From a virus (Duplodnaviria > Heunggongvirae > Uroviricota > Caudoviricetes): a stretch of DNA of 22,421 nt. This document shows positions 1,901-15,253 of the stretch, piece by piece. Below the pieces are notes generated by a model. That model was not told the origin of the DNA and searched no databases. It saw only the letters and a list, made by a program, of their open reading frames with translations. The DNA lies in IMG/VR virus record IMGVR_UViG_3300022758_000225, positions 1-22,421 of that record, one strand, 5' to 3'. The stretch's first letter is position 1; each line of letters starts with the position of its first letter. A program made the translations under genes and the position numbers.

Positions 1901-2290
1901 TCAGGCGGCTGCACCCGCCGTTTTCTCGTACTTACTGATGGTGATCTCGACCTTCCCTTTCGGGATAACCGGTCCCCACTCCACCAGCATTCTTTTCACC
2001 TGTCTGTCGTCTTCCCACACACCCGCGTGGGTCAACGCGTCAAACAGCGCCTTGTTATAGTTGTCCAGATCGCGGATCCGGTTATCCGGAGGAAACAACA
2101 CGATCTCCACTGAAGCAGGTGCCGACGTTGGTTTTGGCAGACGACGTAACTGCTCAACTATTGCTGCGCACGCCGCGCTCTGAAATTTTCGCCCCGCCGC
2201 GCTTATCAGGCTCTTACCAGCAAATGCCCCTTTGTTGGGGTGTCGCCAGTACGTGTTCACGCTGGGCGGGAAAGGCAGGATCAGCTTCAT
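1901..2290 (-). CDS. rusA: Holliday-junction resolvase RusA
   Basis: 129 aa with PPSVNTYWRH, DLDNYNKALFDAL and GVWEDDRQV motifs matching E. coli RusA. Start overlaps the upstream stop as ATGA. Confidence 0.85.
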   Translation of the reverse strand: MKLILPFPPSVNTYWRHPNKGAFAGKSLISAAGRKFQSAACAAIVEQLRRLPKPTSAPASVEIVLFPPDNRIRDLDNYNKALFDALTHAGVWEDDRQVKRMLVEWGPVIPKGKVEITISKYEKTAGAAA

Positions 2291-2613
2291 ACTTTCAGGC
2301 CTCTCTCATGTAACCAGTGGGTTGCACGCAGCCTGGCGTTTTCCTCACCGGCAAGCAGTGAGCGGATAATCCCGACCGCCTCGCTGTCGTCGTCCTTCAC
2401 CGCGGTATGAAGAGTGATACCCCGGGCCACGCCACGCTTTATCGTGATGACGCCTTTTTTCTCCAGTGCGCGAAGATGTTCCACCGCTGCATTCACTGAA
2501 CGGTATCCCAGCATGGTTGCCACCTCCTGATTGGTTGGCGGGAAGCCACGTTCTTTCTGGTAAGAAATCAGCATATCCAGCACCTGCTGCTGGCATTGAG
2601 TTAACGTCGTCAT
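2287..2613 (-). CDS. LexA N-terminal DNA-binding-domain protein lacking the S24 peptidase domain
   Basis: 108 aa; QQQVLDML...GFPPTNQEVATMLGYRSVNAAVEHLRALEKKGVI aligns by eye with the LexA winged-HTH domain. No Ala-Gly cleavage site or Ser/Lys dyad. ATGA overlaps at both ends. Confidence 0.7.
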   Translation of the reverse strand: MTTLTQCQQQVLDMLISYQKERGFPPTNQEVATMLGYRSVNAAVEHLRALEKKGVITIKRGVARGITLHTAVKDDDSEAVGIIRSLLAGEENARLRATHWLHERGLKV

Positions 2614-3263
2614 GCCGCCATCTCCCTGACCAGTTTTTCCGCCTGCTGGCGAACCTGCGCCAGAAACGCCTCACCACATGCCTCAAGTTCATCGCGCCCG
2701 ATGTAGCTGATTGCCGGTCCCTTCCAGGTCTTGTCGAAAACAGCAATAGCACCAGCGAAGAAAGCGCCTGTCGGCACCTGCTTCTCGTCCTTCGGTATAA
2801 ACCAGGCAGGCAGTTCAAAACCAATACGCCCGCGAATAAAAGCAATATGATCTGCATCTTCCGGCCACCACACTTCGCTGGTGGCCGCTTTGATCAGGAA
2901 AACATAGCGCCCGCCCTTATCACGCATGGCACTGGCATGTTTCATGATGTAACGCATGCCGGTGATGTATTGCCCCTCATGCTGACTGGCGCGGCTGTAT
3001 GGGGGATTACCAAAGGCAGCACCTTTAAGCTCCGCAAGACGTTCTGACCAGTCATGCGCCAGCGCGTTATCTTCCGCCGTGTAATACGCGGCACATTTGG
3101 CGTTATCACCGTCAGTAAACAGATCCAGAACAAACGGGCCAAACAGAGTGTTAATTCCCCAGAAAATGTTGTCCGGCGTGCGCCACTGATCGCCCACTTC
3201 CTTCAGTTCATGGGCTGGTTTGTTCCGCAGTTCCACCAGTGCCTGACAATATTTATTACTCAT
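2610..3263 (-). CDS. phage N6-adenine DNA methyltransferase (Dam-like orphan methylase)
   Basis: Contains the NPPY motif (FGNPPYS) and a DLFTDGDN region typical of phage N6-adenine methyltransferases. Preferred start is ATG at 3263, overlapping the upstream stop as TAATG; the track gives a GTG at 3296. Confidence 0.8.
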   Translation of the reverse strand: MSNKYCQALVELRNKPAHELKEVGDQWRTPDNIFWGINTLFGPFVLDLFTDGDNAKCAAYYTAEDNALAHDWSERLAELKGAAFGNPPYSRASQHEGQYITGMRYIMKHASAMRDKGGRYVFLIKAATSEVWWPEDADHIAFIRGRIGFELPAWFIPKDEKQVPTGAFFAGAIAVFDKTWKGPAISYIGRDELEACGEAFLAQVRQQAEKLVREMAA

Positions 3264-3745
3264 TAAGCCCCCACGTAATTCCCTGACAGATACCACTCTT
3301 CACCCGATGCTGCGCGCTTGCTGCTTTTCTGTAAGCACTGCTCACGACGCGCCAGAAAATTGTTTCGTTCTGGCTGGGAGTGGCTTTCACGGAATGCCGC
3401 CATCCACACCGTTGCAGCACGACGGTATAAGCCCCTGGACTCCAGTTCTTCAGCCTGGCGAATCACCCGGGGATCGTTAGTGCCGACATAGAAATTGCGC
3501 ACAGGTCTGGTTTCACGAACTGGTTGTGGTTCCGGCTCCTGCGCTCTCTCAGTCAGGCGCGGGAAATGTCTGCGTGTATCTCCTTCACAACGGTGAGCCA
3601 CACGCCCACTCTGACGTAACTTGCTTGCTGACTGCAGAACGCGCTGTCGTGAGTAACCTGCAAAAGCATCCGCAATGTCTCCGAAAGTACACCCCGGATG
3701 GGCTTCAATGAATTTCTGAACTTCATTCAAAAGACTCATGATCAC
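3263..3745 (-). CDS. putative DNA-binding regulator with PerC-like C-terminal region
   Basis: 160-aa ORF in an operon of overlapping genes. The segment RVIRQAEELESRGLYRRAATVWMAAF resembles PerC-family proteins, from recall only. Confidence 0.4.
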   Translation of the reverse strand: MIMSLLNEVQKFIEAHPGCTFGDIADAFAGYSRQRVLQSASKLRQSGRVAHRCEGDTRRHFPRLTERAQEPEPQPVRETRPVRNFYVGTNDPRVIRQAEELESRGLYRRAATVWMAAFRESHSQPERNNFLARREQCLQKSSKRAASGEEWYLSGNYVGA

Positions 3746-4332
3746 CCCCTGAATCCTACCGGGATCTGGCTGTAGTCCACGTTGTCGTAACTGGCTTTGA
3801 AGTACGGGTCTTCACGTTTTTCTGTGTGCGTGCTGACGGACGGCGATAAGCGCAGGGAAAGCTCATCCCATTTTTCCCTCAACTTCGACGGGCTGAGCAC
3901 GTTACGGTACCAGAACGGATCGCGGCTGACGCGGCTGTACATCTCGCAGATTTGTTTGTGAGTACGACCATCCTGCACACACATCAGGCGAATTTCGTTT
4001 GCCCATGCTGTCCAGTTCGGTTCTTTGGGACGAACCACCTCGCCGTCACATTCGGCGGCCTGCTCGTACAGGGCGATGATTTTTTTCCAGAGCCACTGTG
4101 CGCAGGTCAAATCATCCTGCGTTCCCCACTGGCGCTTTTTAGGGCTGAATACAACCGCATCAGGATGGCGAGTTAAAAACTCCTGTTCAGCCGTTTGCGT
4201 GTCCGGTTGCGAAGCGTCCGGACGAGAAGAGGTTTTATTCTCTGTAGTAATCTCTGTTGTATTCTCTGTAAGATCATTGGGCCATTTTGACCCGATGACA
4301 GCGTGTCGTTTTGAACCAATGGATCGTGTCAT
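3742..4332 (-). CDS. replication protein, C-terminal part (O-like linker plus C-terminal domain)
   Basis: 196 aa. N-terminus is low-complexity (TENTTEITTENKTSS) and is encoded by the iteron region. ATG overlaps the stop of the replisome-organizer ORF as ATGA. Function inferred from position and iteron linkage. Confidence 0.5.
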   Translation of the reverse strand: MTRSIGSKRHAVIGSKWPNDLTENTTEITTENKTSSRPDASQPDTQTAEQEFLTRHPDAVVFSPKKRQWGTQDDLTCAQWLWKKIIALYEQAAECDGEVVRPKEPNWTAWANEIRLMCVQDGRTHKQICEMYSRVSRDPFWYRNVLSPSKLREKWDELSLRLSPSVSTHTEKREDPYFKASYDNVDYSQIPVGFRG

Positions 4333-4408
4333 TTGCGCCCATCCATCAGGTCACTTTGACCCGATGGAGAAGTGCATTTTGACCTGATGGATTCGTTCAC
4401 TTTGACCT
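4285..4408. repeat. origin-of-replication iterons (about 5 direct copies of TTTGAC(C/A)YGATGG plus one inverted copy)
   Basis: Direct copies at 4285-4298, 4309-4322, 4355-4367, 4377-4390 and a partial copy at 4400-4408. An inverted copy (ccatcaggtca) lies at 4343-4353. Spacing is 22-24 bp. They sit inside the replication gene, as ori-lambda does inside O. Confidence 0.6.
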
Positions 4409-4733
4409 CTTCTAAAAGCTCACTTTCATAGTTGATCGTGTAGAAGTTGGTCATGTCACGCTTCGATTTATTGAGTTGCTCGCGACGCAAAACCCCAAGT
4501 GATTTCAGGCTTGCAAATGTGCGTTTCAGAGTGGACTCTGACCAGAACGGAAACTGCTCCAGCCACTGTTCTGTCGTGTTATAAACCCAGCGAATTCCGC
4601 CATGCTCAGTGCCTGAATTCGTTTCATTCAGCCAGTAATGAAGCTGCTGCAACACAATTGCCTCATTCAGACCAATACGGCATGCAAGATCACGATTTAT
4701 CACAATGGGCTGGGATGTCATTAACAGGCTCAT
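4329..4733 (-). CDS. phage replisome organizer, N-terminal iteron-binding domain (lambda O-like)
   Basis: 134 aa; the N-terminus [39 protein letters not shown] resembles replisome-organizer N-terminal domains. Its 3' end is encoded by the iterons. Confidence 0.6.
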   Translation of the reverse strand: MSLLMTSQPIVINRDLACRIGLNEAIVLQQLHYWLNETNSGTEHGGIRWVYNTTEQWLEQFPFWSESTLKRTFASLKSLGVLRREQLNKSKRDMTNFYTINYESELLEEVKVNESIRSKCTSPSGQSDLMDGRK

Positions 4734-4902
4734 GACCGACCTCTATTTCCCTGAATTTACGACGAAACTGTTCGAGCGGACTGAAGCATTCATGTTCATA
4801 GCCTTCACGGAGGTAGATAACCCGTTGTGTTTCCGGCTCCCAACGAATGACTCTGACGGGCACTCCGTAGTGATCTTTGAACCAGCGGTTAACTTGTCGC
4901 AA
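4690..4902 (-). CDS. small phage protein (DUF4222-like)
   Basis: 70-aa ORF with TTG start at 4902 preceded by a strong SD (AAGGAGA at 4906-4913 on the minus strand). Motif [12 protein letters not shown]. Its 3' end overlaps the replication gene start by 44 nt. Confidence 0.45.
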
Positions 4903-5081
4903 AGGACTGTCTCCTTCTGCCGGTTGAAATCACCCACAGCCCACTCTGCAAAGCTGTGGGTTACAATTTCCCTGTCACCTGGTACATTCACTGCATAGCA
5001 ATACTCCACCTTCGCTTTTCCACCCGGTACAGGAAGCGCAATCAGTTGCGAGCGACGGTAGTGTGTTGTTAAACTGTTCAT
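4743..5081 (-). CDS. hypothetical protein (gene model uncertain)
   Basis: ATG at 5081 with GGAG about 10 nt upstream. The 3' two-thirds overlaps the DUF4222-like gene in another frame and looks low-complexity, so the true product is probably shorter. Confidence 0.2.
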
Positions 5082-5147
5082 GCGTTAGTTTCTCCACAAC
5101 CAGAAGCAATCGACGCCACGACGCCCGGAGCTGCACACTCGCGGGCG

Positions 5148-5636
5148 TCACTCTTTTCTGGAGCGCAAAAGATTTTGTAGACCAGTGCTGCATGCTCCTG
5201 GAGCTTCGCAAATTGACAGATACAACTCATCATTAATTGCTGTCTGCTCGTGTGGCTCCACTACCCCATCTTCGATTGCCGAACGAATCTGCTTTGAGTA
5301 ACTCCCGATCTGTTCGATGACTTCCAGCAGGCGCTGGTTTATATCGGCGTTCTCTACTTCCTCAATTTCAGGAAGCGATACAAACACCCCACCAGCAGAC
5401 TGTGCGACAGCATCCGCAATGTAGTGAGTGCCAGCCGCGCGCTGTAAAATCATTGCCCATCCCAGCGGGAAAATCTGATCGCCATCTGCACGAAGGCGGT
5501 TGAATAAAGCGTTCTCTGTTACATCCAGCCACTCAGCAGCTTCAGCGTAACCCCCCGGCAACGCCGCGATAGTTTTTCTGACAGCTTTCACGTACCACTC
5601 AGGCTGTTTTTCCACTTTCCAGTGATGATTACCCAC
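5148..5636 (-). CDS. CII-like regulatory protein (CP76 / YdaT-like family)
   Basis: 162 aa with GTG start preceded by AGGAGG. Lies immediately downstream of the cro-like gene, opposite the repressor. Family assignment is from recall only. Confidence 0.5.
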   Translation of the reverse strand: MGNHHWKVEKQPEWYVKAVRKTIAALPGGYAEAAEWLDVTENALFNRLRADGDQIFPLGWAMILQRAAGTHYIADAVAQSAGGVFVSLPEIEEVENADINQRLLEVIEQIGSYSKQIRSAIEDGVVEPHEQTAINDELYLSICEAPGACSTGLQNLLRSRKE

Positions 5637-5732
5637 GGCTTACCTCCTGTTCCTGTGGTTTAAAACCCATTCTGGTTTTGGCTAGATTGAAAACGTGCCG
5701 GATAAAGAATCTGCATTTCGCTGATTTCACCC

Positions 5733-5921
5733 TTAAAAAAATTGGCCAGACGTTCTGCAAGATCGATAGATGGAATTTGTTCCAGTCTTTTCAATACGAC
5801 TCAGCGTCGCTGGATTGACCTGAACGCCAGCAGCAACATGCTGCAAAGTAAATCCGTGCGCCTTACGCACATTTCCGTAATGGTGATTGCATATTACCTC
5901 CACATATTGCGTGATGAGCAT
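5733..5921 (-). CDS. Cro-like HTH (XRE-family) regulator
   Basis: HTH signature LQHVAAGVQVNPATLSRIEKTG. Divergent from the repressor gene. Internal ATG at 5921 chosen because the track's TTG at 6017 would overlap the cI start; no obvious SD, so possibly leaderless. Confidence 0.45.
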   Translation of the reverse strand: MLITQYVEVICNHHYGNVRKAHGFTLQHVAAGVQVNPATLSRIEKTGTNSIYRSCRTSGQFF

Positions 5922-5970
5922 ATTATTTTCACGCAAATATTTTGCGCAAGTTGATTTGCTTAACGCGCAA
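5907..5970. promoter_or_regulatory. OR-like operator cluster and divergent promoters between the cro-like and cI-like genes
   Basis: Three 15-bp palindromic sites centred about 24 bp apart: TTGCgtgatgaGCAt (5907-5921), cGCAAatattTTGCg (5932-5946), TTGCttaacgcGCAA (5956-5970). TTGATT at 5951-5956 and TAATAA at 5982-5987 are candidate promoter hexamers. Confidence 0.5.
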
Positions 5971-5990
5971 TAAAGAAATGTAATAAACGC

Positions 5991-6684
5991 ATGAACATAG
6001 GAAACCGAGTCAGACAACTTCGCCAGGCGAAGAACATGAAAATCGCCGATCTCGCTGAAGCAATAGGAGTGGATGCGGCGAATATCTCACGCCTGGAAAC
6101 AGGTAAGCAGAAACAATTCACTGAACAAGCCCTGAGTAATATTGCCAGGAGCTTAGGTGTTGATATTGCTGATCTCTTTACCTCAGACGTCAAAAGTAAT
6201 ACTGTATGTAAAAACAGTATTAGTGAGGATGTTGCGCAGGTGAAGGATGTATTCCGTATTGAAATGCTGGATGTCAGTGCCAGTGCGGGAAATGGCCTTA
6301 TCCAGGGCGGTGATGTCATTGATGTGATTCATGCCATTGAATACAGAACTGATAATGCTGTATCGATGTTTTGGCGGACGGCCAGCCAATCACATTAAAG
6401 TTATCAACGTTCGTGGGGACAGTATGTGTCCAACCATTGAGCCAGGAGATCTCATCTTCGTTGATGTCAGTATCAATCAGTTTGATGGAGATGGTATCTA
6501 TGTATTTGGTTTTGATGATAAAATTTATGTCAAGCGACTGCAAATGATACCTGACAAACTACTGGTGATTTCTGATAACCAGATTTACCGTGAATGGGGA
6601 ATTACCAGCGAAAATGAACACCGGTTTATGGTCTTTGGAAAGGTCTTAATCAGCCAGTCACAAACCCTTAAGCGACACAATTAA
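5991..6684 (+). pseudogene. cI-like prophage repressor (XRE HTH plus S24 LexA-like peptidase domain) interrupted by a frameshift
   Basis: ORF 5991..6398 carries the HTH (IADLAEAIGVDAANISRLETGKQ) and an Ala-Gly site (SASAGNG). ORF 6331..6684 in the +1 frame carries the S24 motifs GDSMCPTIEPGD and KRL. Removing one T from the T4 run at 6369-6372 joins them as ...NAVSMFGGRPANHIKV.... Confidence 0.7.
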
Positions 6685-6704
6685 CCCTTACCTCCTCATC
6701 AATT

Positions 6705-6726
6705 AGCCACCCAAAGGTGGCTTTTC
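6705..6726 (+). terminator. intrinsic terminator downstream of the cI-like gene
   Basis: Stem agccacc / ggtggct with loop caaa, followed by TTTT, about 20 nt after the cI stop at 6682-6684. Confidence 0.5.
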
Positions 6727-6739
6727 ATTACCCTTTAAA

Positions 6740-6792
6740 TTGCATATCTCGCAACAAAAACACTTGCATAATGCGCAACTTCATTTTATCTT
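6740..6792 (+). promoter_or_regulatory. OL-like operators with candidate PL promoter
   Basis: Two TTGC-N7-GCAA sites (6740-6754 and 6764-6778), 24 bp centre to centre, the same motif as the OR sites. TTGCAT at 6764-6769, a 17-bp spacer and TATCTT at 6787-6792 form a candidate rightward promoter. Confidence 0.4.
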
Positions 6793-7222
6793 TCTTTCCA
6801 GACAAACAAACAAGGTACTAACAAAATTTGGTTGTAACACGGCGTATGGCACATGCGTCGTTAGCGGTCTGGGGACGTTAAAGGGGACAATCCACTCCTT
6901 GCTCGGGCAAACAAACCAGGTAGCCGGAATGTGCAAGTCAATGATGATGCTGATAAGACGCCTAACCAGCGTGGCGGTTCGGTTTGACACCTGGGAAGAG
7001 ACCAGGGTGCAACGATGAGGGCATTTATGGAACCGCGACAAAGTGTGGTGCCGTAACTGGCTAAGTGCTCTCAGCGTTGTGGTGAATGCGCAGGCTGATG
7101 CGCGAAAGACATTGCAGCTATTGCGGAAAAGAGCTGTTCGGCGGGGCAATTAAACGCCCGTGAGAGTCTGAAATAACCGCAAGCCGGAGATCAGCACCGG
7201 TCACCACAACAGCCACTGCTTT

Positions 7223-7270
7223 AGCGGTACCAGTTTGTACACTTGCTTCCGGCTGGTACCGCTCTTTTTT
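7223..7270 (+). terminator. intrinsic terminator in the early-left leader (tL-like)
   Basis: Perfect 11-bp stem agcggtaccag (7223-7233) / ctggtaccgct (7253-7263) with a 19-nt loop, followed by T6 at 7265-7270. Confidence 0.5.
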
Positions 7271-7407
7271 ACAAAACAGAGAAGAGCATCACCGGACGAC
7301 GGGCTCATAACCCAATCCATCCGGGCGGCTGCCACCGCAGGTGTTCTTCTCTGTTTTGTGGAGAAACCAACCGACCTTGCAGGGTCGATATGATGAGGAG
7401 CAGCAAA

Positions 7408-7770
7408 ATGGCTAGCGTACGCAGTACTGATGTGCAGGCATTTATCGGGGAGCTGGACGGCGGCGTATTTGAAACCAAAATCGGCGCTGTTCTCAGTGAA
7501 GTCGCTTCCGGTGTGATGAACACGAAAAACAAAGGTAAGGTCTCGCTCAACCTGGAAATCGAACCATTTGATGAGAACCGTGTGAAAATCAAACACAAAC
7601 TCTCATATGTTCGCCCGACTAACCGCGGGAAAATTTCCGAAGAAGACACCACCGAAACGCCGATGTATGTCAATCGCGGTGGTCGCCTGACTATTCTGCA
7701 GGAAGACCAGGGACAATTACTGACTCTTGCCGGTGAACCTGACGGAAAACTCCGCGCAGCAGGTCATTAA
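7408..7770 (+). CDS. hypothetical early-left protein (first gene after the leader; yfdP-like by position and size)
   Basis: ATG at 7408 preceded by GAGGAG at 7395-7400; 120 aa. No similarity to lambda N. Track ORF 7243..7770 is an upstream extension without an RBS. Confidence 0.5.
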   Translation: MASVRSTDVQAFIGELDGGVFETKIGAVLSEVASGVMNTKNKGKVSLNLEIEPFDENRVKIKHKLSYVRPTNRGKISEEDTTETPMYVNRGGRLTILQEDQGQLLTLAGEPDGKLRAAGH

Positions 7771-7835
7771 TATCGTTCTTAATTAACTGATTATTTATCT
7801 CATCACTGAATATCTTAATATAGTGAGGACTTATT

Positions 7836-8659
7836 ATGTCTCAGAACTTAGACGCAACCGCAATTAATCAAATCCATGCCCTTATTTCTGCTCAGGGTGT
7901 TAATGAAATTATCAGTAAGATTGGTGCCGATGCTGTGGCATTGCCTGAGAATTTCCGCATTCATGATCTGGAAAAATTTAATTTAAATCGCTTCCGTTTC
8001 CGTGGTGCGCTTTCCACTGCCAGCATCGATGACTTTACCCGTTATTCTAAAGATCTTGCAGATGAAGGCACCCGCTGCTTTATCGATGCCGATAATATGC
8101 GAGCCATCAGTGTGCTTAACCTGGGTACTATTGATGAACCAGGTCACGCAGATAACACCGCCACTCTCAACTGAAAAAGACAGCACCGTTCTCTGCCCTG
8201 CTGTCTGTTAATGGCGAGCGTAACTCCCAGAAGTCACTGGCAGAATGGATTGAAGACTGGGCCGACTATCTTGTGGGCTTTGATGCTAATGGTGACGCTA
8301 TTAAGGCAACAAAAGCGGCTGCGGCAGTCCGTAAAATCACGATTGAAGCAAACCAGACCGCTGATTTTGAAGATAATGACTTCAGCGGCAAACGCTCTTT
8401 GATGGAGTCTGTCGAAGCGAAAACCAAAGACATTATGCCAGTAGCATTTGAGTTTAAATGCGTTCCGTTTGAAGGCCTGAAAGAACGTCCGTTTAAATTA
8501 CGCCTCAGCATTATCACTGGTGATCGTCCTGTACTGGTTCTGCGCATTATTCAGCTGGAAGCGGTGCAGGAAGAAATGGCTAACGAATTTCGTGATCTGC
8601 TTGTTGAGAAATTCAAAGACAGCAAAGTAGAAACCTTTATTGGTACTTTCACCGCCTGA
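7836..8659 (+). pseudogene. DUF2303-like (yfdQ-like) gene split by a frameshift
   Basis: N-part 7836..8174 (frame 0) stops at 8172-8174. The C-part frame is open from 8156 and continues to 8659 (track ORF begins at GTG 8273). The two frames overlap in 8156-8172; joined length is about 274 aa. Confidence 0.5.
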
Positions 8660-8786
8660 TTTCATTACTGCAAATGCCCCTGCGGGGGCATTTATGGAAA
8701 CGTAATTGACTCAATAATCGCCAGATGGTGAGGGCTTCCTTTTACCAGAATTCAGCGCGGTGCAGCGCATATACGTGGAGAACAAA

Positions 8787-9323
8787 ATGTCATTTATTAA
8801 AACTTTTTCCGGGAAGCATTTTTATTATGACAGGATAAATAAAGACGACATCGTTATTAACGATATCGCGGTTTCTCTTTCAAATATCTGTCGCTTTGCA
8901 GGACATCTTTCACATTTCTACAGCGTCGCCCAACATGCGGTGCTTTGCAGCCAACTGGTACCGCAGGAATTTGCTTTTGAAGCGTTAATGCATGATGCAA
9001 CAGAAGCGTATTGCCAGGACATCCCGGCGCCACTGAAACGCCTTCTTCCTGACTATAAACGGATGGAAGAAAAAATAGACGCCGTAATCCGTGAGAAATA
9101 CGGGTTACCACCAGTTATGAGTACACCCGTGAAATATGCCGATCTCATCATGCTGGCAACCGAACGTCGCGATCTCGGGCTTGATGATGGCTCTTTCTGG
9201 CCTGTACTGGAAGGCATCCCGGCAACAGAGATGTTCAACGTGATTCCACTGGCTCCGAGCCATGCCTACGGGATGTTTATGGAACGTTTTAACGAGTTAT
9301 CGGAGTTACGCAAATGCGCATGA
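8787..9323 (+). CDS. HD-domain phosphohydrolase (yfdR-like)
   Basis: His-Asp motif in EALMHDATEAYCQDIP plus HLSHFYSVAQH. ATG at 8787 preceded by GGAG gives 178 aa; the track ORF starts at 8760. Confidence 0.65.
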   Translation: MSFIKTFSGKHFYYDRINKDDIVINDIAVSLSNICRFAGHLSHFYSVAQHAVLCSQLVPQEFAFEALMHDATEAYCQDIPAPLKRLLPDYKRMEEKIDAVIREKYGLPPVMSTPVKYADLIMLATERRDLGLDDGSFWPVLEGIPATEMFNVIPLAPSHAYGMFMERFNELSELRKCA

Positions 9324-9730
9324 ATGTTTTCGAAATGGAAGGGTTTCTTCGCGGGAAATGTGTACCACGAGATCTGAAAGTGAATGAAACAAATGCTGAG
9401 TATCTGGTGCGTAAATTTGCTGAAGCGGAGGCCAAGTGCGCGGCGCTGGCGGCGGAGAATGAGCTGGCTCGTAAAGCTGTTCAGGCATTCTGTGAGGTTG
9501 TTGGCGACAACACTGAGATTATCTCCGTGTTGGTTGGGCGAGATGGCGTTCTGGTTATTTTGGAGGCCATGAAGGCAACAGGAAATATGTCAGCCACCGA
9601 CGCTTTCCTGGCTGAAGTACGTGCGCAGGGTGTTGAATTGTTGCGCGAGCATCCTGCTATCCAGATTTGCTCTTTAACGCACGTATGCGACGAGTTCGCC
9701 GCCCAGCTTCGTAAAGGAGGCAACCAGTGA
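9314..9730 (+). CDS. hypothetical protein
   Basis: 138-aa ORF. ATG at 9314 preceded by GGAG; overlaps the HD gene stop by 10 nt. Confidence 0.45.
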   Translation: MRMNVFEMEGFLRGKCVPRDLKVNETNAEYLVRKFAEAEAKCAALAAENELARKAVQAFCEVVGDNTEIISVLVGRDGVLVILEAMKATGNMSATDAFLAEVRAQGVELLREHPAIQICSLTHVCDEFAAQLRKGGNQ

Positions 9731-10026
9731 CTGTATGTCTTATTGATAAACGTCGACGTGGGCAACAAATACCATCTGTTGAAATGCCGAATCACACATG
9801 GTTTTGCGTACTTGATATCGATGGTATGGATACGTTGATCGACACTCGTCATTACTGCGATACCGCAACAGCTACTCCGGCGAAAGCAAAGAAAATGGCT
9901 GCTCTGATAGAAAACTGGACTCCACCTGATGGTTGGTGCAATGGGAATGATCGGGATTGGCATGAAAAAATGAAGAGCTATATCTGCGATTTCTTACGTA
10001 AATGCAACGGATTCAGGGTGATGTGA
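9727..10026 (+). CDS. hypothetical Cys-rich small protein
   Basis: 99 aa. GTG start overlapping the upstream stop as GTGA, preceded by a strong AGGAGG at 9713-9718. Confidence 0.45.
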   Translation: MTVCLIDKRRRGQQIPSVEMPNHTWFCVLDIDGMDTLIDTRHYCDTATATPAKAKKMAALIENWTPPDGWCNGNDRDWHEKMKSYICDFLRKCNGFRVM

Positions 10027-10027
10027 C

Positions 10028-10564
10028 ATGAGCAATATTGACTATCAGGCACTGCGTGAGGCGGCAGAACGTGCAATTCCGGCAATGGAACGCCTGTTAA
10101 TGTTGCCAGCTGATGATGATTTGTTAAGTGAACAGGAACTTAAAGATTACGGTGTGGATATTGATGCGCTCAACGCCTTCAAATTTCTGAACGGACCAGA
10201 AACCGTGCTGGCACTGCTGGATGAACGGGAAAGAAACCAGCAATACATCAAACGCCGTGACCAGGAGAACGAGGATATTGCGCTTACGGTTGGGAAGCTG
10301 CTCGTTGAGCTTGAAGCAGCAAAATCAAAACTCAACGAGCAGCGCGAGTATTACGAGGGAGTTATCTCTGATGGGTGCAAGCGTATTGCTGAACTGGAAG
10401 CGCGGGAAGTTCAATTACCGACTCGCTACGACCTTCGATATGGACACCCGATAAATGCAGATGAGCGACATGTCATGATACCTAAAGAAAATGGCAGTTG
10501 GCTTTACCTGATTGACCTGGAACACGCATTACGCGTCGCTGACATTCGCATCAAAGGAGAGTGA
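10028..10564 (+). CDS. Ead/Ea22-like early protein
   Basis: 178 aa. N-terminus MSNIDYQALREAAERA and a coiled-coil-like middle section resemble Ea22-like proteins of lambdoid early-left regions, from recall only. Confidence 0.45.
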   Translation: MSNIDYQALREAAERAIPAMERLLMLPADDDLLSEQELKDYGVDIDALNAFKFLNGPETVLALLDERERNQQYIKRRDQENEDIALTVGKLLVELEAAKSKLNEQREYYEGVISDGCKRIAELEAREVQLPTRYDLRYGHPINADERHVMIPKENGSWLYLIDLEHALRVADIRIKGE

Positions 10565-10565
10565 T

Positions 10566-10829
10566 ATGGCAACTTTGACAAAAAAAGAACAAGCATGGTT
10601 GAGCGAATTACAGGACGTTCTTGATCGCTGCCCATCACCGAAAAAAATTGGTTTTTACACCATTGGCGATAAAAGCATTTACCTGTATGACCTGCGCCGC
10701 ATGGATGAAATCATGGAGGCTCTTGATAATCGTTCGTCAATGGATTGGTGTGTTGCTGTTCATGATATGAATGCCGGATTTGATGAAAAGATTTTATTCC
10801 CCTCATCAGTTGAAAGTACAGCAGGATAA
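10566..10829 (+). CDS. hypothetical protein
   Basis: ATG at 10566 two nt after the upstream stop, preceded by AAAGGAGAG; 87 aa. The track ORF extends upstream to 10512. Confidence 0.45.
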   Translation: MATLTKKEQAWLSELQDVLDRCPSPKKIGFYTIGDKSIYLYDLRRMDEIMEALDNRSSMDWCVAVHDMNAGFDEKILFPSSVESTAG

Positions 10830-10839
10830 GGACTAACAC

Positions 10840-11412
10840 ATGACCACTATTACCAAAGAGCGACTGCTGACAATCAGGCAGTGGCGCGAAACATACGGAC
10901 CTGGTAGCAACGTTGTACTGCCAGCAGAAGAAGCGGAAGAACTGGCACGAATTGCTCTGGCATCGCTGGAAGCAGAACCTGTAAGCCAAACTTACAACTT
11001 GCCACAAACGCACTTTGAACAGGTTGCTGACCTTTACGAAATGCAATTTGATGACGGACGCACTTGTGCCTTTCATACTGATGCGCAAAAGGCTGCGCAA
11101 TGGCTTCGGGCATGCGACGGAAACAGGGTTCAGGAATACGTGAAACTGGAGCGACTGCAGAACGCGCTATCGGGCAACTCTCCGGTAATTCCGGATAGTT
11201 GGATAAGCTGTAGTGAGCGAATGCCGGAAAAGAATCAGAACGTGCTTATTTCGGTGAATTTCGATAGCTCTCTGGTTGAACCGCTAATATGCTCCGCACG
11301 CTATACCGGAAGCACCTTTCGGCGCGGAGATGCAACGATTAAGCCGGGTAATGGTATTGAGCAGGCAACCCACTGGATGAAATTACCGGAACCACCGCAG
11401 GAGGTGAAGTGA
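10840..11412 (+). CDS. DUF551-domain protein
   Basis: C-terminal WISCSERMP...THWMKLPEPP matches the DUF551 signature common in lambdoid prophages. Confidence 0.6.
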   Translation: MTTITKERLLTIRQWRETYGPGSNVVLPAEEAEELARIALASLEAEPVSQTYNLPQTHFEQVADLYEMQFDDGRTCAFHTDAQKAAQWLRACDGNRVQEYVKLERLQNALSGNSPVIPDSWISCSERMPEKNQNVLISVNFDSSLVEPLICSARYTGSTFRRGDATIKPGNGIEQATHWMKLPEPPQEVK

Positions 11413-11984
11413 TGAACAACTTAATGATCGACCTTGAGACGATGGGGAAAAATAAGGATGCACCGATCGTTTCCATTGGCGCGGTGTTCTTCACTCCAGA
11501 AACCGGAGACATCGGACAAGAATTCTATACGGTTGTTAGCCTGGAAAGTGCTATGGGGCAAGGAGCTACACCTGACGGCGATACCATCCTGTGGTGGTTG
11601 AAACAAAGCCCTGAAGCACGAGCTGCAATCTGTATTGATGATACTTTGTCGATCAGCGATGCTCTCTCAGAACTAAATCATTTCATTAACCGGCACGCAG
11701 CCAATACGAAATATTTAAAAGTCTGGGGTAACGGGGCCACCTTCGACAACGTAATTTTACGTGGAGCTTATGAGCGAGCAGGACAAATCTGCCCGTGGGC
11801 ATACTGGAATGACCACGATGTACGCACGATCGTTACGCTTGGGCGTTCCATCGGATTCGACCCCAAAATGGACATGCCTTTCGATGGCGAACGGCACAAC
11901 GCCCTGGCTGATGCTCGTCATCAGGCAAAATATGTTTCCGCTATCTGGCAGAAATTAATTCCTGCCACCAGCACAGAATTATGA
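11412..11984 (+). CDS. DnaQ-like 3'-5' exonuclease (DEDDh family)
   Basis: MIDLETMG (Exo I motif) and ERHNALADARHQ (Exo III H-x4-D motif). AGGAGG at 11399-11404. Confidence 0.65.
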   Translation: MNNLMIDLETMGKNKDAPIVSIGAVFFTPETGDIGQEFYTVVSLESAMGQGATPDGDTILWWLKQSPEARAAICIDDTLSISDALSELNHFINRHAANTKYLKVWGNGATFDNVILRGAYERAGQICPWAYWNDHDVRTIVTLGRSIGFDPKMDMPFDGERHNALADARHQAKYVSAIWQKLIPATSTEL

Positions 11985-12020
11985 TTTTCCCGGGTGCAGC
12001 CGGTTTTGATGGAGAAAATT

Positions 12021-12302
12021 ATGAACACCTTGTTTTTACTGATGGCTGAATTCAATACCCCTAACATTGAACTCTCAGCAGTTAGCCAAAAGTACTTTGG
12101 CATGAGTCCAGCCACGGCAGAAGCAAAAGCAAACGCTTGTAAGTTGCCCGTTCCAACATATCGCATCGGCACATCACAAAAAGCAAAACGTTGCATCAAT
12201 ATTCAGGATCTTGCGGAATACATAGACAAAAGACGAGAAGAAGGACGTATCGAGTGGGAACAGGTCAGAACAGGCAAACAGAAGGGCAAAGAACATCACT
12301 AA
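12021..12302 (+). CDS. PrtN-family DNA-binding protein (pyocin-activator / excisionase-like)
   Basis: MNTLFLLMAEFN...IQDLAEYIDKRR closely resembles the N-terminus of P. aeruginosa PrtN. ATG at 12021 preceded by GGAG. Confidence 0.6.
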   Translation: MNTLFLLMAEFNTPNIELSAVSQKYFGMSPATAEAKANACKLPVPTYRIGTSQKAKRCINIQDLAEYIDKRREEGRIEWEQVRTGKQKGKEHH

Positions 12303-12304
12303 AG

Positions 12305-12331
12305 AAAAAACCCGCCTAAAGGCGGGTTTTC
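12305..12331. terminator. bidirectional intrinsic terminator
   Basis: aaaaaaCCCGCCtaaaGGCGGGtttt: GC-rich stem flanked by an A-run and a T-run, between convergent genes ending at 12302 and 12350. Confidence 0.6.
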
Positions 12332-12349
12332 AAAAAGCACCAGCTATGA

Positions 12350-12523
12350 TCATGCTGCTTTGCGACGACGAAGCTTACCCTGCTGCTCTTTACCAGAGAC
12401 AGTAGCGTGAGTGAACGCATTAGGAGCAGCCTTCATCAGAACTTCAACAGCAGCACCCATACCTGCGAATGCTTTCATTGTGTCGAACTTAACCTGTGGC
12501 TTGGTTGCTTTTTGATCTTTCAT
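12350..12523 (-). CDS. small lysine-rich hypothetical protein (57 aa; not in the supplied ORF track)
   Basis: Hand translation of the minus strand gives MKDQKATKPQVKFDTMKAFAGMGAAVEVLMKAAPNAFTHATVSGKEQQGKLRRRKAA. ATG at 12523 preceded by GGGAG at a 7-nt spacing. Confidence 0.4.
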   Translation of the reverse strand: MKDQKATKPQVKFDTMKAFAGMGAAVEVLMKAAPNAFTHATVSGKEQQGKLRRRKAA

Positions 12524-12719
12524 AGAAAACTCCCGAGACAGTAAAGGCGTCTCTAACCCTCTCTTTAAAGCTAGCTTGTTTAGCTAACTTATGCCAATCG
12601 ATCATGTCGATTGGTGACATCGTTTCTTAGTAGTTTAAGCACAAAACGACTGCCATAGATGTACCTTTAAGGTAATCTGGACGGGTATCCTACAATTTGT
12701 AGACCCTTCTCGTCTATAC

Positions 12720-13256
12720 CTACTGAGCAAATTTAAGAAAGATATCCTGCAGCTCATCAATGACTGCAGACATCACATAACCGCACTGTTCCATGCGGAA
12801 ACCAAAAGACTCGTAATACTGCACCAGTTCTGGTACTGGCTCTACAATGTGGACAACTTTACATTCAACAGCTTTACAAAATATAAAAGCACTCATAAGA
12901 GTGAGTAAAACCATGCGCCCTTTCAATGGGTGAGATTCATCTTCTCTAGAAAACCTTTCGATCATATGGATACGAAAGATGTTTTCTTCAACCCCATAAA
13001 CACAAATTGCTGCTCCTGATGGTATTCCCTGAACCCGACCTTGCTGAACAAGTTTTATGCAGAACTCATACTTTTCTCTGGAGTTGCCATAGGTGCTTAA
13101 CGCATAGTCCCATTCAAGCTCACCATAGCCACCACACAGAATCTTGTAATCATCATCACTGAGCGGACCAACAGCAAGAGGTAAGCCGACATGATCAATA
13201 ATCAACTGGATATTGTTACGTACAGATTGACCTATCTCGTCTAGGGTAAGCATCAT
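12720..13256 (-). CDS. GNAT-like acetyltransferase-fold protein (moron candidate)
   Basis: 178 aa. KGRMVLLTLMS and ELVQYYESFGF resemble GNAT motifs A and B. Opposite strand to its neighbours and visibly AT-rich. Fold call is tentative. Confidence 0.45.
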   Translation of the reverse strand: MMLTLDEIGQSVRNNIQLIIDHVGLPLAVGPLSDDDYKILCGGYGELEWDYALSTYGNSREKYEFCIKLVQQGRVQGIPSGAAICVYGVEENIFRIHMIERFSREDESHPLKGRMVLLTLMSAFIFCKAVECKVVHIVEPVPELVQYYESFGFRMEQCGYVMSAVIDELQDIFLKFAQ

Positions 13257-13536
13257 AGACTCTCAAGCGGAACACTAAAAATCTCATTATATCTCATTCT
13301 GATGCCCCGCATGGATTACACCTTGAAATGAAAACACCGGGTTCCCAATAGGCTCCCACAAAGTGTATAACTACTTGTTTTTCAAAAACGGTACATCCTA
13401 TCGAGCATAGGAGCAATGCTAAACCGAGAACTCCAGTAAGCGCCAGTTTTTTCAGGCATCACGCTGGTTTGATTAGTTTTCTGTATTTCAGGATTATCGT
13501 GCATTTTTGAACATTTCAGGCTATTTTTCTCGCGTT

Positions 13537-13572
13537 AGGTTCCCGCACAGGTTCCCACGTTTTATGGGAACC
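13537..13572. promoter_or_regulatory. repeated GGTTCCC motifs upstream of the integrase gene (candidate arm-type or regulator binding sites)
   Basis: AGGTTCCC at 13537-13544 and 13549-13556; inverted copy GGGAACC at 13566-13572, forming TTCCCA-N7-TGGGAA. Related GGTTCCCA and GGCTCCCA copies at 13340-13347 and 13351-13358. Confidence 0.35.
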
Positions 13573-13592
13573 CGAAATAACGAGGTCGTGTA

Positions 13593-14690
13593 ATGGCGTA
13601 CTATAACATAGAGAAACGACTAAAATCCGATGGCACACCACGCTATCGCTGTAATGTGATTATCAAAGAAAAAGGTGTTATCACTTACAGGGAAAGCAAA
13701 ACATTCCCTAAACATGCTCATGCCAAAACATGGGGCGCACAGAAAGTGATGGAATTAGATCTATATGGCATTCCATCATCAAATGCTGTTGATGGACTTA
13801 CAGTCCGTGACTTACTACACAAATATTTAAATGACCCAAATGCCGGAGGTAAAGCAGGCCGTACTAAAAGATATGTGCTGGAACTGCTTATGGATAGTGA
13901 CATATCCGCGATCAAACTATCTGAACTGACAGAAAATGACGTAATTGAACATTGCAGGCTAAGAAACAACGCTGGTGCAGGCCCAGCAACAGTCAGCCAC
14001 GATGTTAGTTATCTTGGCAGTGTTCTGGATGCGGCAAAACCTGTATACGGAATCAATTACACATCAAACCCGGCGAAAAGCGCTCGTCCATATCTACTTA
14101 AACTCGGTTTGATTGGTAAATCAAACCGTCGTAATCGTAGACCAGCATCTGATGAACTGGACATGCTCATTGAAGGCCTTCAACAACGATCTACTCATAA
14201 ATGCTCAAAAATTCCGTTCGTTGATATCCTCAAATTTTCTGTGTGGTCCTGTATGCGAATCGGAGAAGTATGCCGGTTACGATGGGAAGATCTCGACCAA
14301 GAACAAAAATCTATACTAGTAAGAGATAGGAAAGATCCACGTAAAAAGGAAGGTAACCATATGAAAGTTGCCTTGCTTGGGGAAGCCTGGGATATCGTCC
14401 AGCGCCAACCCAAAAAATCAGAATTCATTTTTCCATATAACAGCACTTCTGTTACCGCAGGATTTCAGAGGGTAAGAAGCAAATTAGGTATTAAAGATCT
14501 GCGATACCATGATTTGCGTAGAGAAGGGGCAAGTCGCTTATTTGAGGCTGGTTTTAGTATTGAGGAAGTCGCTCAAGTTACAGGGCATCGTTCATTAAAC
14601 GTGCTATGGCAGGTATATACCGAACTGTATCCGAAATCTTTACATAATCGTTTTGAAGAACTCCAAAAGAGCAGAAACAAGACCTCTTGA
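13593..14690 (+). CDS. int: tyrosine site-specific integrase
   Basis: 365 aa with C-terminal catalytic signature YHDLRREGASRLFEAGFSIEEVAQVTGHRSLNVLWQVYTEL (HxxR and Tyr nucleophile). RBS GAGG. Confidence 0.9.
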   Translation: MAYYNIEKRLKSDGTPRYRCNVIIKEKGVITYRESKTFPKHAHAKTWGAQKVMELDLYGIPSSNAVDGLTVRDLLHKYLNDPNAGGKAGRTKRYVLELLMDSDISAIKLSELTENDVIEHCRLRNNAGAGPATVSHDVSYLGSVLDAAKPVYGINYTSNPAKSARPYLLKLGLIGKSNRRNRRPASDELDMLIEGLQQRSTHKCSKIPFVDILKFSVWSCMRIGEVCRLRWEDLDQEQKSILVRDRKDPRKKEGNHMKVALLGEAWDIVQRQPKKSEFIFPYNSTSVTAGFQRVRSKLGIKDLRYHDLRREGASRLFEAGFSIEEVAQVTGHRSLNVLWQVYTELYPKSLHNRFEELQKSRNKTS

Positions 14691-14692
14691 CA

Positions 14693-14736
14693 CTGTTTAT
14701 TTATACAGATAAAAATAACACTGTATACAAACACAG
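14693..14736. promoter_or_regulatory. two tandem LexA (SOS) boxes upstream of the dinI-like gene
   Basis: CTGTttatttatACAG (14693-14708) and CTGTatacaaacACAG (14721-14736); both match CTGT-N8-ACAG exactly and lie 16-60 nt upstream of the ATG at 14752. Confidence 0.7.
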
Positions 14737-15000: not shown

Positions 15001-15068
15001 TAAACACGTAAAATCGGTAACGGCTGGAAATCATTCAATACCCGCACTATCGAAAGTTCACCAGCCAA

Positions 15069-15112
15069 CCGCAGCACGTCCTGCATACGTCGTGTCTGCG
15101 GTTTTTCTTTTT
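15069..15112 (+). terminator. intrinsic terminator downstream of int and dinI (tI/sib-like position)
   Basis: Stem ccgcagcacg / cgtgtctgcgg with one bulge, followed by TTTTTcTTTTT. Confidence 0.45.
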
Positions 15113-15253
15113 CGCTTACATTGTGTCTGGTTCTTCCGGCCACTCAATATCAGGTGCAGTTGATGTATCAACACGGTTCAGCAACACCCTGCATGCCTTC
15201 CATGCCGCCAGCAATGATGTTTCCTCCTTCGTTGCATATACTGCTCACCTTTT

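What the first reader, a model, noticed from the sequence alone, without database searches (positions are those of the whole stretch)
13339..13572. GGTTCCC repeat array in front of int, and an int-to-tail-fibre adjacency that places attP in this window
Four direct GG(T/C)TCCC(A) copies and one inverted copy cluster between -255 and -20 of the int start, like integrase arm-type or excisionase sites. Int lies about 1 kb from the end of the J-lom-stf operon, which is the phage-form arrangement. attP must therefore be either in 13257-13592 or in 15001-15253, the latter beyond the dinI-like gene and a sib-like terminator.
Basis: partly seen in the sequence, partly recalled or inferred. Interest (0 to 1): 0.5.

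Follow-up and report, generated by a model that had tools for sequence, protein, structure and literature searches.

The report
Integrase arm sites flanking dusA attP
The GGTTCCC repeats are real and are most likely the accessory ("arm-type") docking sites of this phage's integrase, placed on both sides of the crossover point where the phage inserts into the host dusA gene; this is an ordinary kind of feature, but it has apparently not been described for this integrase family.

Summary
All four exact GGTTCCC words in the 22.4-kb window, plus one GGCTCCC, lie in 13340-13572, and no simulation came close to this clustering. The window is the excised (attP) form of an mEp460-like lambdoid phage. 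Lysogens match it exactly from 13401 rightwards and place it in the 5' end of dusA. The crossover lies in GAGCAT (13403-13408), inside the inverted repeat TCCTAT-CGAGC-ATAGGA. Two repeats lie about 50-65 bp to its left. Two direct and one inverted copy lie about 135-165 bp to its right, between a phage-borne substitute dusA 5' end and int. The same layout recurs across the dusA-integrase family with more than 20 different repeat words. Each element's word is shared by its two arms and tracks residues of the integrase N-terminal domain. The best reading is lambda-style arm-type Int sites. The argument used was wrong, because the int-tail-fibre adjacency also exists in prophages. The second interval and the "sib-like" and tRNA ideas are refuted. 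The dusA target and the PrtN-type excisionase (RdfN) were already published, but I found no description of the arm sites.

The parts
13339..13347 (+). L1, left-arm arm-type site gGGTTCCCA (about -64 from the crossover)
   Evidence: The equivalent pair carries the element's own word in every attP-form relative examined. It sits at attR in lysogen N56.
13350..13358 (+). L2, left-arm arm-type site aGGCTCCCA, 11 bp after L1
13368..13380 (-). IHF-like site AAACAAGTAGTTA (one mismatch to WATCAANNNNTTR) between L2 and the core
   Evidence: It is the only such match in 13300-13600. The same position (-225/-226 from the int ATG) and strand are used in YeP1 and EKP1. Binding is inferred.
13396..13412 (.). 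attP core: inverted repeat TCCTAT-CGAGC-ATAGGA, with the crossover inside GAGCAT (13403-13408)
   Evidence: Comparison of attP, attL and attR. attL variants keep host bases through 13405 and phage bases from 13409. This agrees with the published 7-base core of the near-identical phage 1720a-02.
13382..13504 (-). Phage-borne substitute dusA 5' end (ATG at 13504). After integration it fuses in frame at the core to host dusA. In the phage form it is a 40-codon ORF.
   Evidence: translation MHDNPEIQKTNQTSVMPEKTGAYWSSRFSIAPMLD.... In lysogen N56 the annotated dusA starts at the position equivalent to 13504.
13476..13530 (+). Phased T-tract / (C/T)ATTT(T/C) motifs about 10-11 bp apart, on the core side of R1. 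They may be RdfN or bending-protein sites, or an intrinsic bend.
   Evidence: Read. The family-wide conservation profile shows T-tracts at fixed positions. ATTTCAGG copies are listed. The function is not resolved.
13537..13545 (+). R1, right-arm arm-type site aGGTTCCCg (+134 from the core)
13549..13557 (+). R2, right-arm arm-type site aGGTTCCCa, 12 bp after R1
13565..13573 (-). R3, inverted arm-type site (GGGTTCCCA on the minus strand), ending 20 bp before the int ATG
   Evidence: An inverted copy lies at about -27 to -41 in 32 of 97 relatives, almost all of the enterobacterial and viral ones.
13593..14690 (+). int: dusA-specific tyrosine integrase, 365 aa. Predicted N-terminal beta-beta-beta-alpha domain (residues 1-60), helical core-binding domain, catalytic domain.
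   Evidence: PF00589 at 1e-20. R222, K247, H306, R309, H332 and Y342 are invariant. AF2 models. Fold matches to Tn1549 and lambda Int.
11994..12302 (+). rdfN homologue: PrtN-family excisionase (recombination directionality factor), across attP from int
   Evidence: PF11112 at 4e-23. PHROG 1300 'excisionase' at 8e-40. RdfN is the proven RDF of a dusA element (PMC8409611).

Best explanation
The five GG(T/C)TCCC(A) words are the arm-type sites of the attP of an mEp460-like, dusA-integrating lambdoid phage.

Shown: the window is the excised form, and the crossover with the host lies in GAGCAT (13403-13408) inside a TCCTAT/ATAGGA inverted repeat. Two words lie 50-65 bp to the left and three lie 134-165 bp to the right.

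Inferred: the integrase is heterobivalent. Its catalytic and core-binding domains hold the dusA-like core. Its small N-terminal beta-sheet domain (residues 1-60) holds the GGTTCCCA words. DNA bending brings the arm-bound N-domains to the core to form the intasome. The candidate bends are the IHF-like site at 13368-13380 in the short arm and the phased T-tracts, possibly with RdfN, in the long arm.

Integration puts L1-L2 at the attR end (towards zur). It leaves R1-R3, int and a phage-supplied dusA 5' end and promoter region at attL, so dusA is rebuilt. Excision additionally needs the PrtN-family RdfN encoded at 11994-12302. Because R1-R3 fill most of the 88 bp between the divergent dusA' and int start codons, Int occupancy may also modulate those two promoters. 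That last point is speculative.
For: - Clustering far beyond chance.
- The att site is defined by comparing attP, attL and attR. Lysogens match 100% from 13401 rightwards, and the N56 prophage's other end matches window 1-13417 at 99.9%.
- The architecture is conserved while the sequence changes in concert. YeP1 uses AGCACCCC, EKP1 GTACACC, Marinobacter AS1 GGTGCTCC, BcepIL02 and GP4 TTGCTAC, Haddon GTGGTAAA and Rhizobium Y3_1 GTACGAC. Each has a left pair spaced 11-12 bp (11 in most), and a right cluster whose direct copies, where there are two or more, are spaced 11-12 bp, with one or two inverted copies.
- In a cross-matrix, each element's word hits its own arms (2 left, 2-5 right; BcepIL02's second left copy falls outside the one-mismatch limit) and almost never the arms of other elements.
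- Distances to the core differ only by about one or two helical turns: -64/-53 or -84/-73 on the left, +134/+146 or +144/+156 on the right.
- In 79 loci with a dusA core, mostly one genome per species, the 8-mers at core+135 and 11-12 bp further on agree at 7 or 8 of 8 positions in 52 loci. In 316 control registers none reached 7.
- The word tracks the Int N-domain. Residue 7 is E with base 5 = C in 24 of 28 cases, V with A in 5 of 5, K with G in 2 of 2 and Q with G in 4 of 7. It does not track RdfN similarity.
- The N-domain model (pLDDT 85) is a three-stranded sheet plus helix.
- Full-length lambda Int chains align over 354-371 columns, against 289-297 for lambda Int(75-356). This implies that the N-domains co-align.
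- RdfN and Int suffice for excision of a dusA element (PMC8409611). Int is required for excision of the near-identical phage 1720a-02 (PMC6328086).
Against: - No binding data exist.
- The N-terminal 70 residues match no Pfam family and no PDB sequence. They do not align significantly with lambda Int by hhalign.
- The residue-to-base associations are not corrected for shared ancestry.
- int and rdfN flank attP and are inherited as one module, so covariation alone cannot fully separate the two proteins.
- The consensus scan found no sigma-70 promoter between 13505 and 13592, so the autoregulation idea has no direct support.
Confidence: 0.82

Rival explanations
1. The words are binding sites for the PrtN-family excisionase RdfN (or another accessory protein) rather than for Int. 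They would steer directionality, not build the basic intasome.
For: RdfN is the proven directionality factor of dusA elements. A homologue is encoded at 11994-12302. In YeP1 and EKP1 the gene lies immediately next to attP. rdfN and int are co-inherited across attP, so covariation with Int could partly reflect linkage.
Against: - The words lie on both arms. From established knowledge of lambda, HP1, P2 and L5, RDF sites normally occupy one arm next to Int arm sites.
- The RdfN proteins of YeP1 and EKP1 are 76% identical, yet their words differ. YeP1 and Kp4884-1 share the word with only 55% identical RdfN, no closer than pairs with different words.
- Specific Int N-domain residues track word bases.
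- A second set of phased motifs, conserved in position and largely in sequence across elements whose arm words differ (T-tracts / CATTTT, ATTTCAGG), is available in the long arm as RDF candidates.
Confidence: 0.08
2. The words are only operators of a transcription regulator for the divergent int and dusA' promoters, with no role in recombination.
For: R1-R3 occupy 13537-13573 of the 88-bp gap between the dusA' ATG (13504) and the int ATG (13593). A related element was shown to provide a promoter for dusA and a constitutive Pint.
Against: - Two further copies lie 200 bp away on the far side of the crossover point. In the lysogen they end up about 40 kb away at attR.
- Across the family the sites keep a fixed register relative to the crossover point. 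The distance from the core to int varies from -158 to -217, while R1 stays at +134 to +145.
- No consensus promoter was detected here.
- A regulatory role in addition to recombination is not excluded.
Confidence: 0.05
3. The cluster is a chance or compositional artefact.
For: The word is short (7 nt), and GGYTCCC as a whole is not significantly over-represented in the window (8 found, 4.1 expected; 7 of 100 shuffles reach 8).
Against: None of 3000 simulations placed more than 3 copies in 233 bp, against 5 observed. The same layout with other words recurs in dozens of independent relatives.
Confidence: 0.01

Closest known systems
dusA-associated integrase (DAI) elements: Farrugia et al. 2015 (PMC4482086); phage 1720a-02 / Phi-stx2dact (PMC6328086); IMEVchUSA3 and RdfN (PMC8409611); phage mEp460 (JQ182728)
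   Same: - The integrase is the same: 98-99.7% amino-acid identity to mEp460-type phages, and about 96% DNA identity to 1720a-02.
- Insertion is about 100 bp into dusA at the semi-conserved 21-bp site, with a 7-base crossover core.
- The element brings a new dusA 5' end and promoter.
- A PrtN-family RDF lies across attP from int.
   Different: Those papers define only the core-type repeat at attL and attR. The word 'arm' does not occur in the Farrugia or Durand texts. Searches combining dusA with 'arm-type', 'arm', 'arm-binding', 'EMSA' or 'footprinting' found no description. The 2+3 arm-site layout, its conserved register and its diversification into many words appear to be additions. The library searched is incomplete.
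Bacteriophage lambda Int / attP (arm sites P1, P2, P'1-P'3; IHF, Xis, Fis)
   Same: The following comes from my own knowledge of lambda, set against the results here.
- An attP of about 235-240 bp.
- Two arm sites on one side of the core and three on the other.
- Arm words unrelated to the core sequence.
- An IHF-type site between arm sites and core.
- A small separate RDF.
- A three-domain integrase whose full-length model aligns end to end with full-length lambda Int.
   Different: - int lies on the other side of attP and is transcribed away from it, so int and the RDF are separated by integration.
- The terminator after int-dinI stays linked to int, so sib-type retroregulation is impossible.
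- Four of the five words are in direct orientation.
- The target is a protein-coding 5' end that the phage replaces.
- The RDF belongs to the PrtN family.
- The N-domain has no detectable sequence similarity to that of lambda Int.
Tn916 / Tn1549 integrases (N-terminal three-stranded-sheet arm-binding domain; AP2/GCC-box fold class)
   Different: The Tn1549 crystal constructs lack the arm-binding domain, so they say nothing about residues 1-60. The AP2 hits are weak and sit among unrelated folds.
ICE SXT at prfC
   Same: [quoted passage not shown]
   Different: A different integrase family and a different target. This is only an analogy for the gene-repair aspect.

Membership tests
dusA-associated integrase (DAI) elements | Tyrosine recombinase with the catalytic R-K-H-R-H-Y set | tested here: met
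   PF00589 at E = 1e-20, residues 189-346. R222, K247, H306, R309, H332 and Y342 are invariant among five relatives down to 34% identity.
dusA-associated integrase (DAI) elements | In the integrated state, int lies next to dusA and is transcribed divergently from it | tested here: met
   In lysogen N56, dusA (minus strand) starts 88 bp from int (plus strand). The same holds in the other lysogens listed.
dusA-associated integrase (DAI) elements | Insertion at the semi-conserved site in the 5' end of dusA, giving imperfect direct repeats at attL and attR | tested here: met
   attP cctatcGAGCATAGGAGCAAT; attL ccagtcAAGCATAGGAGCAAT; attR cctatcAAGCATCGGGGCAAT. 27 of 28 integrated relatives sit at this site and one sits at a secondary site.
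dusA-associated integrase (DAI) elements | The element carries a replacement dusA 5' end in frame | tested here: met
   The ORF on the minus strand from 13504 fuses at the core to host dusA. The lysogen's DusA begins MHDNPEIQKTNQTSVMPEKTGAYWSSRFSIAPMLDWTDRH.
dusA-associated integrase (DAI) elements | PrtN-family RDF (RdfN) across attP from int | tested here: met
   PF11112 at 4e-23 and PHROG excisionase at 8e-40 for 11994-12302. Activity was not tested.
Lambda-type heterobivalent integrase / complex attP | Arm-type sites on both sides of the core, with a sequence different from the core sites | tested here: met
   2 + 3 words flank the core. The layout is conserved with co-varying words in relatives.
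Lambda-type heterobivalent integrase / complex attP | A separate N-terminal arm-binding domain in Int | tested here: inconclusive
   A confident beta-beta-beta-alpha domain is predicted at residues 2-58, and it co-aligns with full-length lambda Int. However, there is no Pfam hit, no PDB sequence hit and no significant hhalign match, and the fold hits for the isolated domain are weak.
Lambda-type heterobivalent integrase / complex attP | Int physically binds the arm sites, and they are required for recombination | not testable with these tools
   This needs EMSA or footprinting and attP mutagenesis. Indirect support comes from the association between Int residues and word bases.
Lambda-type heterobivalent integrase / complex attP | A site for a DNA-bending protein (IHF) between the arm sites and the core | tested here: inconclusive
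   There is a single one-mismatch IHF consensus at 13368-13380, at the same position and on the same strand in YeP1 and EKP1. About 0.2 such matches per 300 bp are expected by chance (my estimate).
Lambda sib retroregulation | The terminator / processing site lies across attP from int, so integration uncouples it from int | tested here: not met
   The hairpin at 15067-15103 lies on the same side of attP as int and stays contiguous with int in lysogens.
tRNA-gene attachment sites | The att core coincides with part of a tRNA gene | tested here: not met
   There is no tRNA or tmRNA gene in the window. The core lies in the dusA coding sequence.

The most novel reading that the evidence does not exclude
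The N-terminal 60 residues of dusA-specific integrases form an uncatalogued arm-binding domain family with no Pfam model. Its DNA specificity has diversified into more than 20 words on a fixed scaffold (G-N4-CC(A)). The read-out is simple: for example, residue 7 E, V/T or Q/K goes with word base 5 C, A or G. This would give a natural library of orthogonal Int/arm-site pairs that all share one core target. In addition, R1-R3 would double as operators of the divergent int and rebuilt-dusA promoters, so that Int occupancy tunes a host tRNA-modification gene in lysogens.
Probability: 0.3. Interest if true: 0.55.

Novelty: new member of a known kind. Interest (0 to 1): 0.35.

Why it matters
The result turns a bare "21-bp att repeat" description of a very widespread integrase family into a full attP map: core, two arms, a candidate bend site and the RDF gene. 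The family occurs in hundreds of Proteobacteria and includes Stx-converting phages and resistance islands. The map gives the minimal DNA (about 13338-13574) needed to build dusA-targeting integration vectors or to assay excision. The family-wide change of arm word, together with particular N-domain residues and against a constant core target, is a ready-made natural experiment. It shows how arm-binding specificity evolves, and it could guide the design of orthogonal integrases. Nothing here overturns current understanding of site-specific recombination.

Tried and rejected
- attP in 15001-15253: rejected. That stretch is continuous in lysogens.
- 'sib-like' terminator: it is a real hairpin plus U-run, but it is on the wrong side of attP to act like sib.
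- tRNA target: no tRNA gene is present.
- Exact search for the N56-type attB in K-12: it failed, because the K-12 dusA 5' end has a different, phage-like sequence. I reconstructed attB from attL and attR instead.
- Pfam on residues 1-175 at E up to 10: only a weak PF24624 hit for residues 72-165, and nothing for 1-70.
- Sigma-70 consensus scan: no promoter called between the dusA' and int start codons, so I could not place Pint or the dusA' promoter.
- First automatic word-finder (most frequent 8-mer with one mismatch): it picked AT-rich words or ATTTCAGG in several loci. I replaced it with a spaced-pair search and then a fixed-register comparison.
- Whether the G/A difference at 13403 between this attP and both N56 junctions reflects heteroduplex repair in the overlap or strain polymorphism: not decided.

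Full report
**1. The observation**

GGYTCCC occurs eight times in the 22,421-base window. Five of these are in 13340-13572. Four are direct: 13340, 13351 (GGCTCCC), 13538 and 13550. One is inverted, at 13566-13572. All four exact GGTTCCC copies in the window are in this stretch. In 3000 first-order Markov simulations, no 233-bp span ever held more than three matches. The repeat finder independently returns the two-site unit on both sides, and it also returns the perfect 10-nt inverted pair CGGGTTCCCA / TGGGAACCCG.

**2. What the window is**

- The region 12700-15600 matches the virion genome of phage mEp460 and its relatives contiguously, at about 96.5%.
- E. coli lysogens (N56, PMV-1 and others) match at 100%, but only from 13401/13404 rightwards. 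In them the annotated dusA gene abuts the match.
- Window 1-13417 is 99.9% identical to the other end of the N56 prophage, next to zur. Window 13401-19596 matches the dusA end.
- The window is therefore the excised or phage form, and attP is at about 13401-13417.
- In the prophage the order is dusA-attL-int-dinI-tfa-stf-lom-J ... Q ... exo-rdfN-orf-attR-zur.
- The second candidate interval (15001-15253) is uninterrupted in lysogens. Its hairpin (15067-15103 plus a U-run) is the terminator after dinI. It cannot work like lambda sib, because integration does not separate it from int.
- No tRNA gene is present.

**3. The core**

- attP reads cctatcGAGCATAGGAGCAATgc.
- attL in N56 reads ccagtcAAGCATAGGAGCAATgc.
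- attR in N56 reads cctatcAAGCATCGGGGCAATcg.
- Among 28 integrated close relatives, the bases at 13403-13405 follow the host (G, A or TAA), while CATAGGAGC follows the phage.
- The exchange therefore lies in or beside GAGCAT (13403-13408). This sits in the middle of the perfect inverted repeat TCCTAT-CGAGC-ATAGGA (13396-13412).
- This agrees with the seven-base core determined experimentally for the near-identical phage 1720a-02, whose excision needs Int (PMC6328086). It also agrees with the 21-bp semi-conserved site of the dusA-associated integrase family (PMC4482086).
- On the minus strand, an ORF starting at 13504 encodes MHDNPEIQKTNQTSVMPEKTGAYWSSRFSIAPMLD. After integration it is fused in frame to host dusA. 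This is the known 'replacement 5' end'.

**4. Where the repeats sit**

- L1 (13339-13347) and L2 (13350-13358) lie 64 and 53 bp to the left of the core.
- R1 (13537-13545), R2 (13549-13557) and the inverted R3 (13565-13573) lie 134-165 bp to its right.
- R1-R3 fall inside the 88 bp between the dusA' start codon and the int start codon.
- In the lysogen, L1-L2 go to attR (visible), and R1-R3 stay with int at attL.
- The layout is two sites on one arm, three on the other, and a total span of about 235 bp. From my own knowledge of lambda, that is the classical layout of a complex attP.

**5. Comparative test**

Integrase relatives were collected from phage records, IMG/VR and one genome per species.

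- Every attP-form relative examined has the same layout with its own word:
  - YeP1 (69% Int identity): AGCACCCC
  - 'EKP1': GTACACC
  - Marinobacter AS1 (about 35%): GGTGCTCC
  - Burkholderia BcepIL02 and Ralstonia GP4: TTGCTAC
  - Pseudomonas Haddon: GTGGTAAA
  - Rhizobium Y3_1: GTACGAC
  - Klebsiella Kp4884-1, which uses a non-dusA site (record ends joined): (A/G)(G/C)ACCCCA
- In a cross-matrix, each word hits its own left arm twice (BcepIL02's second left copy falls outside the one-mismatch limit) and its own right arm 2-5 times. It almost never hits the arms of other elements.
- Positions relative to the core are -64/-53 or -84/-73 on the left, and +134/+146 or +144/+156 on the right. They differ by one or two helical turns.
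- In 79 loci with a dusA core, the 8-mers at core+135 and 11-12 bp further on agree at 7 or 8 of 8 positions in 52 loci, and at 6 or more in 62. In 316 control registers within the same arm none reached 7.
- More than 20 different words occur, on a loose scaffold G-N4-CC(A).
- The word follows particular residues of the Int N-terminal domain. For example, residue 7 is E with word base 5 = C in 24 of 28 cases, V with A in 5 of 5, K with G in 2 of 2 and Q with G in 4 of 7. These counts are not corrected for phylogeny.
- The word does not follow RdfN similarity. The RdfN proteins of YeP1 and EKP1 are 76% identical but their words differ. YeP1 and Kp4884-1 share a word with 55% identical RdfN.

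**6. The protein**

- Int (13593-14690) has the catalytic domain PF00589 and an invariant R222, K247, H306, R309, H332, Y342 set.
- AlphaFold models built on a 36-sequence alignment give a confident N-terminal domain: strands 2-10, 16-26 and 29-38, and a helix at 41-58. Then come a helical core-binding domain and the catalytic domain.
- The full-length model's best PDB matches are Tn1549 Int and lambda Int. Alignments to full-length lambda Int chains span 354-371 columns, against 289-297 for the lambda Int(75-356) constructs, so the N-domains are co-aligned.
- The N-domain has no Pfam hit, no PDB sequence hit and no significant hhalign match.
- Homology of this domain to the known arm-binding domains is therefore not shown.

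**7. Accessory elements**

- The only IHF-consensus match in 13300-13600 (one mismatch) is at 13368-13380, between L2 and the core. It is at the same position and on the same strand in YeP1 and EKP1.
- On the long arm, phased T-tracts and CATTT(T/C) motifs (13476-13530) are conserved in position across the family. In two relatives, three GAATTGCC repeats occupy that position.
- Five ATTTCAGG-like copies lie in 13322-13578.
- These motifs are candidates for RdfN or bending-protein sites, or for an intrinsic bend. I could not decide between these.
- The PrtN-family gene at 11994-12302 corresponds to RdfN. Together with Int, RdfN suffices for excision of a dusA element (PMC8409611).

**8. Mechanism and status of the steps**

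- Shown by sequence comparison: the attP position, the crossover region, the dusA target, the replacement 5' end, the location of the repeats on both arms, and family-wide conservation of the layout with co-varying words.
- Inferred:
  - the Int N-domain binds the words;
  - IHF or intrinsic bends fold the arms onto the core;
  - RdfN acts on the long arm to favour excision;
  - Int bound at R1-R3 may also affect the divergent int and dusA' promoters. No consensus promoter was detected there, although a related element was shown to supply a dusA promoter and a constitutive Pint.
- Confidence that these are Int arm-type sites is about 0.8.

**9. Novelty**

The dusA target, the core, the replacement 5' end and RdfN are all published. 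I found no description of arm-type sites for this family. The word 'arm' is absent from both key papers, and combined searches found nothing relevant. The library is incomplete, however. As a kind of feature this is textbook, so I rate it a new member of a known kind. It is of modest interest, and somewhat more if the residue-to-base pattern proves to be a usable specificity code.

Noticed in passing
window 13322-13578 (13322-, 13449+, 13485+, 13513+, 13571-): There is a second repeated word, ATTTCAGG (one mismatch allowed): five copies in 257 bp, against 37 in the whole window. The two outer copies are inverted and abut L1 and R3. The copies at 13449 and 13485 overlap the Pro-Glu codons (CCTGAA) of the dusA' ORF (MPEK, NPEI). 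It is a possible RDF or accessory-protein motif, or it may be partly coding-driven.
   Followed up: partly
window 13476-13530; same register in loci L005, L006, L042, L052, L067, L075 and others: T-tracts and CATTT(T/C) motifs are phased at about 10-11 bp between the dusA' start codon and R1. They are conserved in position across the family even where the arm words differ. L067 and L075 carry three GAATTGCC repeats there instead.
   Followed up: partly
window 14687-14735: Two LexA-box-like sequences of the form CTGT-N8-ACAG (14692-14707 and 14720-14735) overlap a TTGACA-18-AAAAAT promoter-like site just upstream of the dinI-like gene. This suggests SOS control of the phage dinI.
   Followed up: no
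locus L004 (E. coli K-12, dusA region 6470-6800) compared with window 13401-13504: The annotated K-12 DusA N-terminus (MHGNSEMQKINQTSAMPEKTDVHWSGRFSVAPMLD) resembles the phage-borne dusA' (MHDNPEIQKTNQTSVMPEKTGAYWSSRFSIAPMLD). It does not resemble the displaced native 5' end left at attR in N56 (MPAESHTVYPAYRFSIAPMLD). K-12 also has yjbL and yjbM between zur and dusA. The K-12 dusA 5' end may be a relic of an old dusA-integrated element.
   Followed up: partly
window 13403, compared with L001 4002 and L003 15829: This attP has G at 13403, as does mEp460, whereas both attL and attR of the otherwise 99.9%-identical N56 prophage have A, the host base. Close relatives show G, A or TAA here according to the host. 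This fits a position inside the strand-exchange overlap, but strain polymorphism is not excluded.
   Followed up: partly
one of the IMG/VR loci L009-L039 (the single variant row): One close relative of this integrase is inserted at a non-dusA site, with the junction gcccagccaCGCATAGGAGC. Only GCAT is shared with the normal core, so this is a secondary attachment site.
   Followed up: no
window 12720-13256 (-), 12350-12523 (-) and 13281-13298: Two minus-strand ORFs of unknown function (PHROG 4350 and PHROG 2741) lie between rdfN and attP, opposite in direction to the early-left genes. In the prophage they sit at the attR end. A tandem ATCTCATT repeat (spacing 10) lies just upstream of the larger ORF, between it and L1.
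   Followed up: no
loci L068, L079, L081, L092+L093 (Klebsiella phage Kp4884-1), L109-L112, L117, L119, L126, L136, L145: A sub-branch of the same integrase family (about 50-60% identity) keeps the AGCACCCC-type arm words but has no dusA-like core upstream of int. It has switched target site while keeping its arm specificity.
   Followed up: partly
locus L003 630-1804 (N56 prophage, outside the window): The N56 copy of this prophage carries a subtilase-family AB5 toxin B subunit gene and a scabin-related ADP-ribosyltransferase gene downstream of Q.
   Followed up: no
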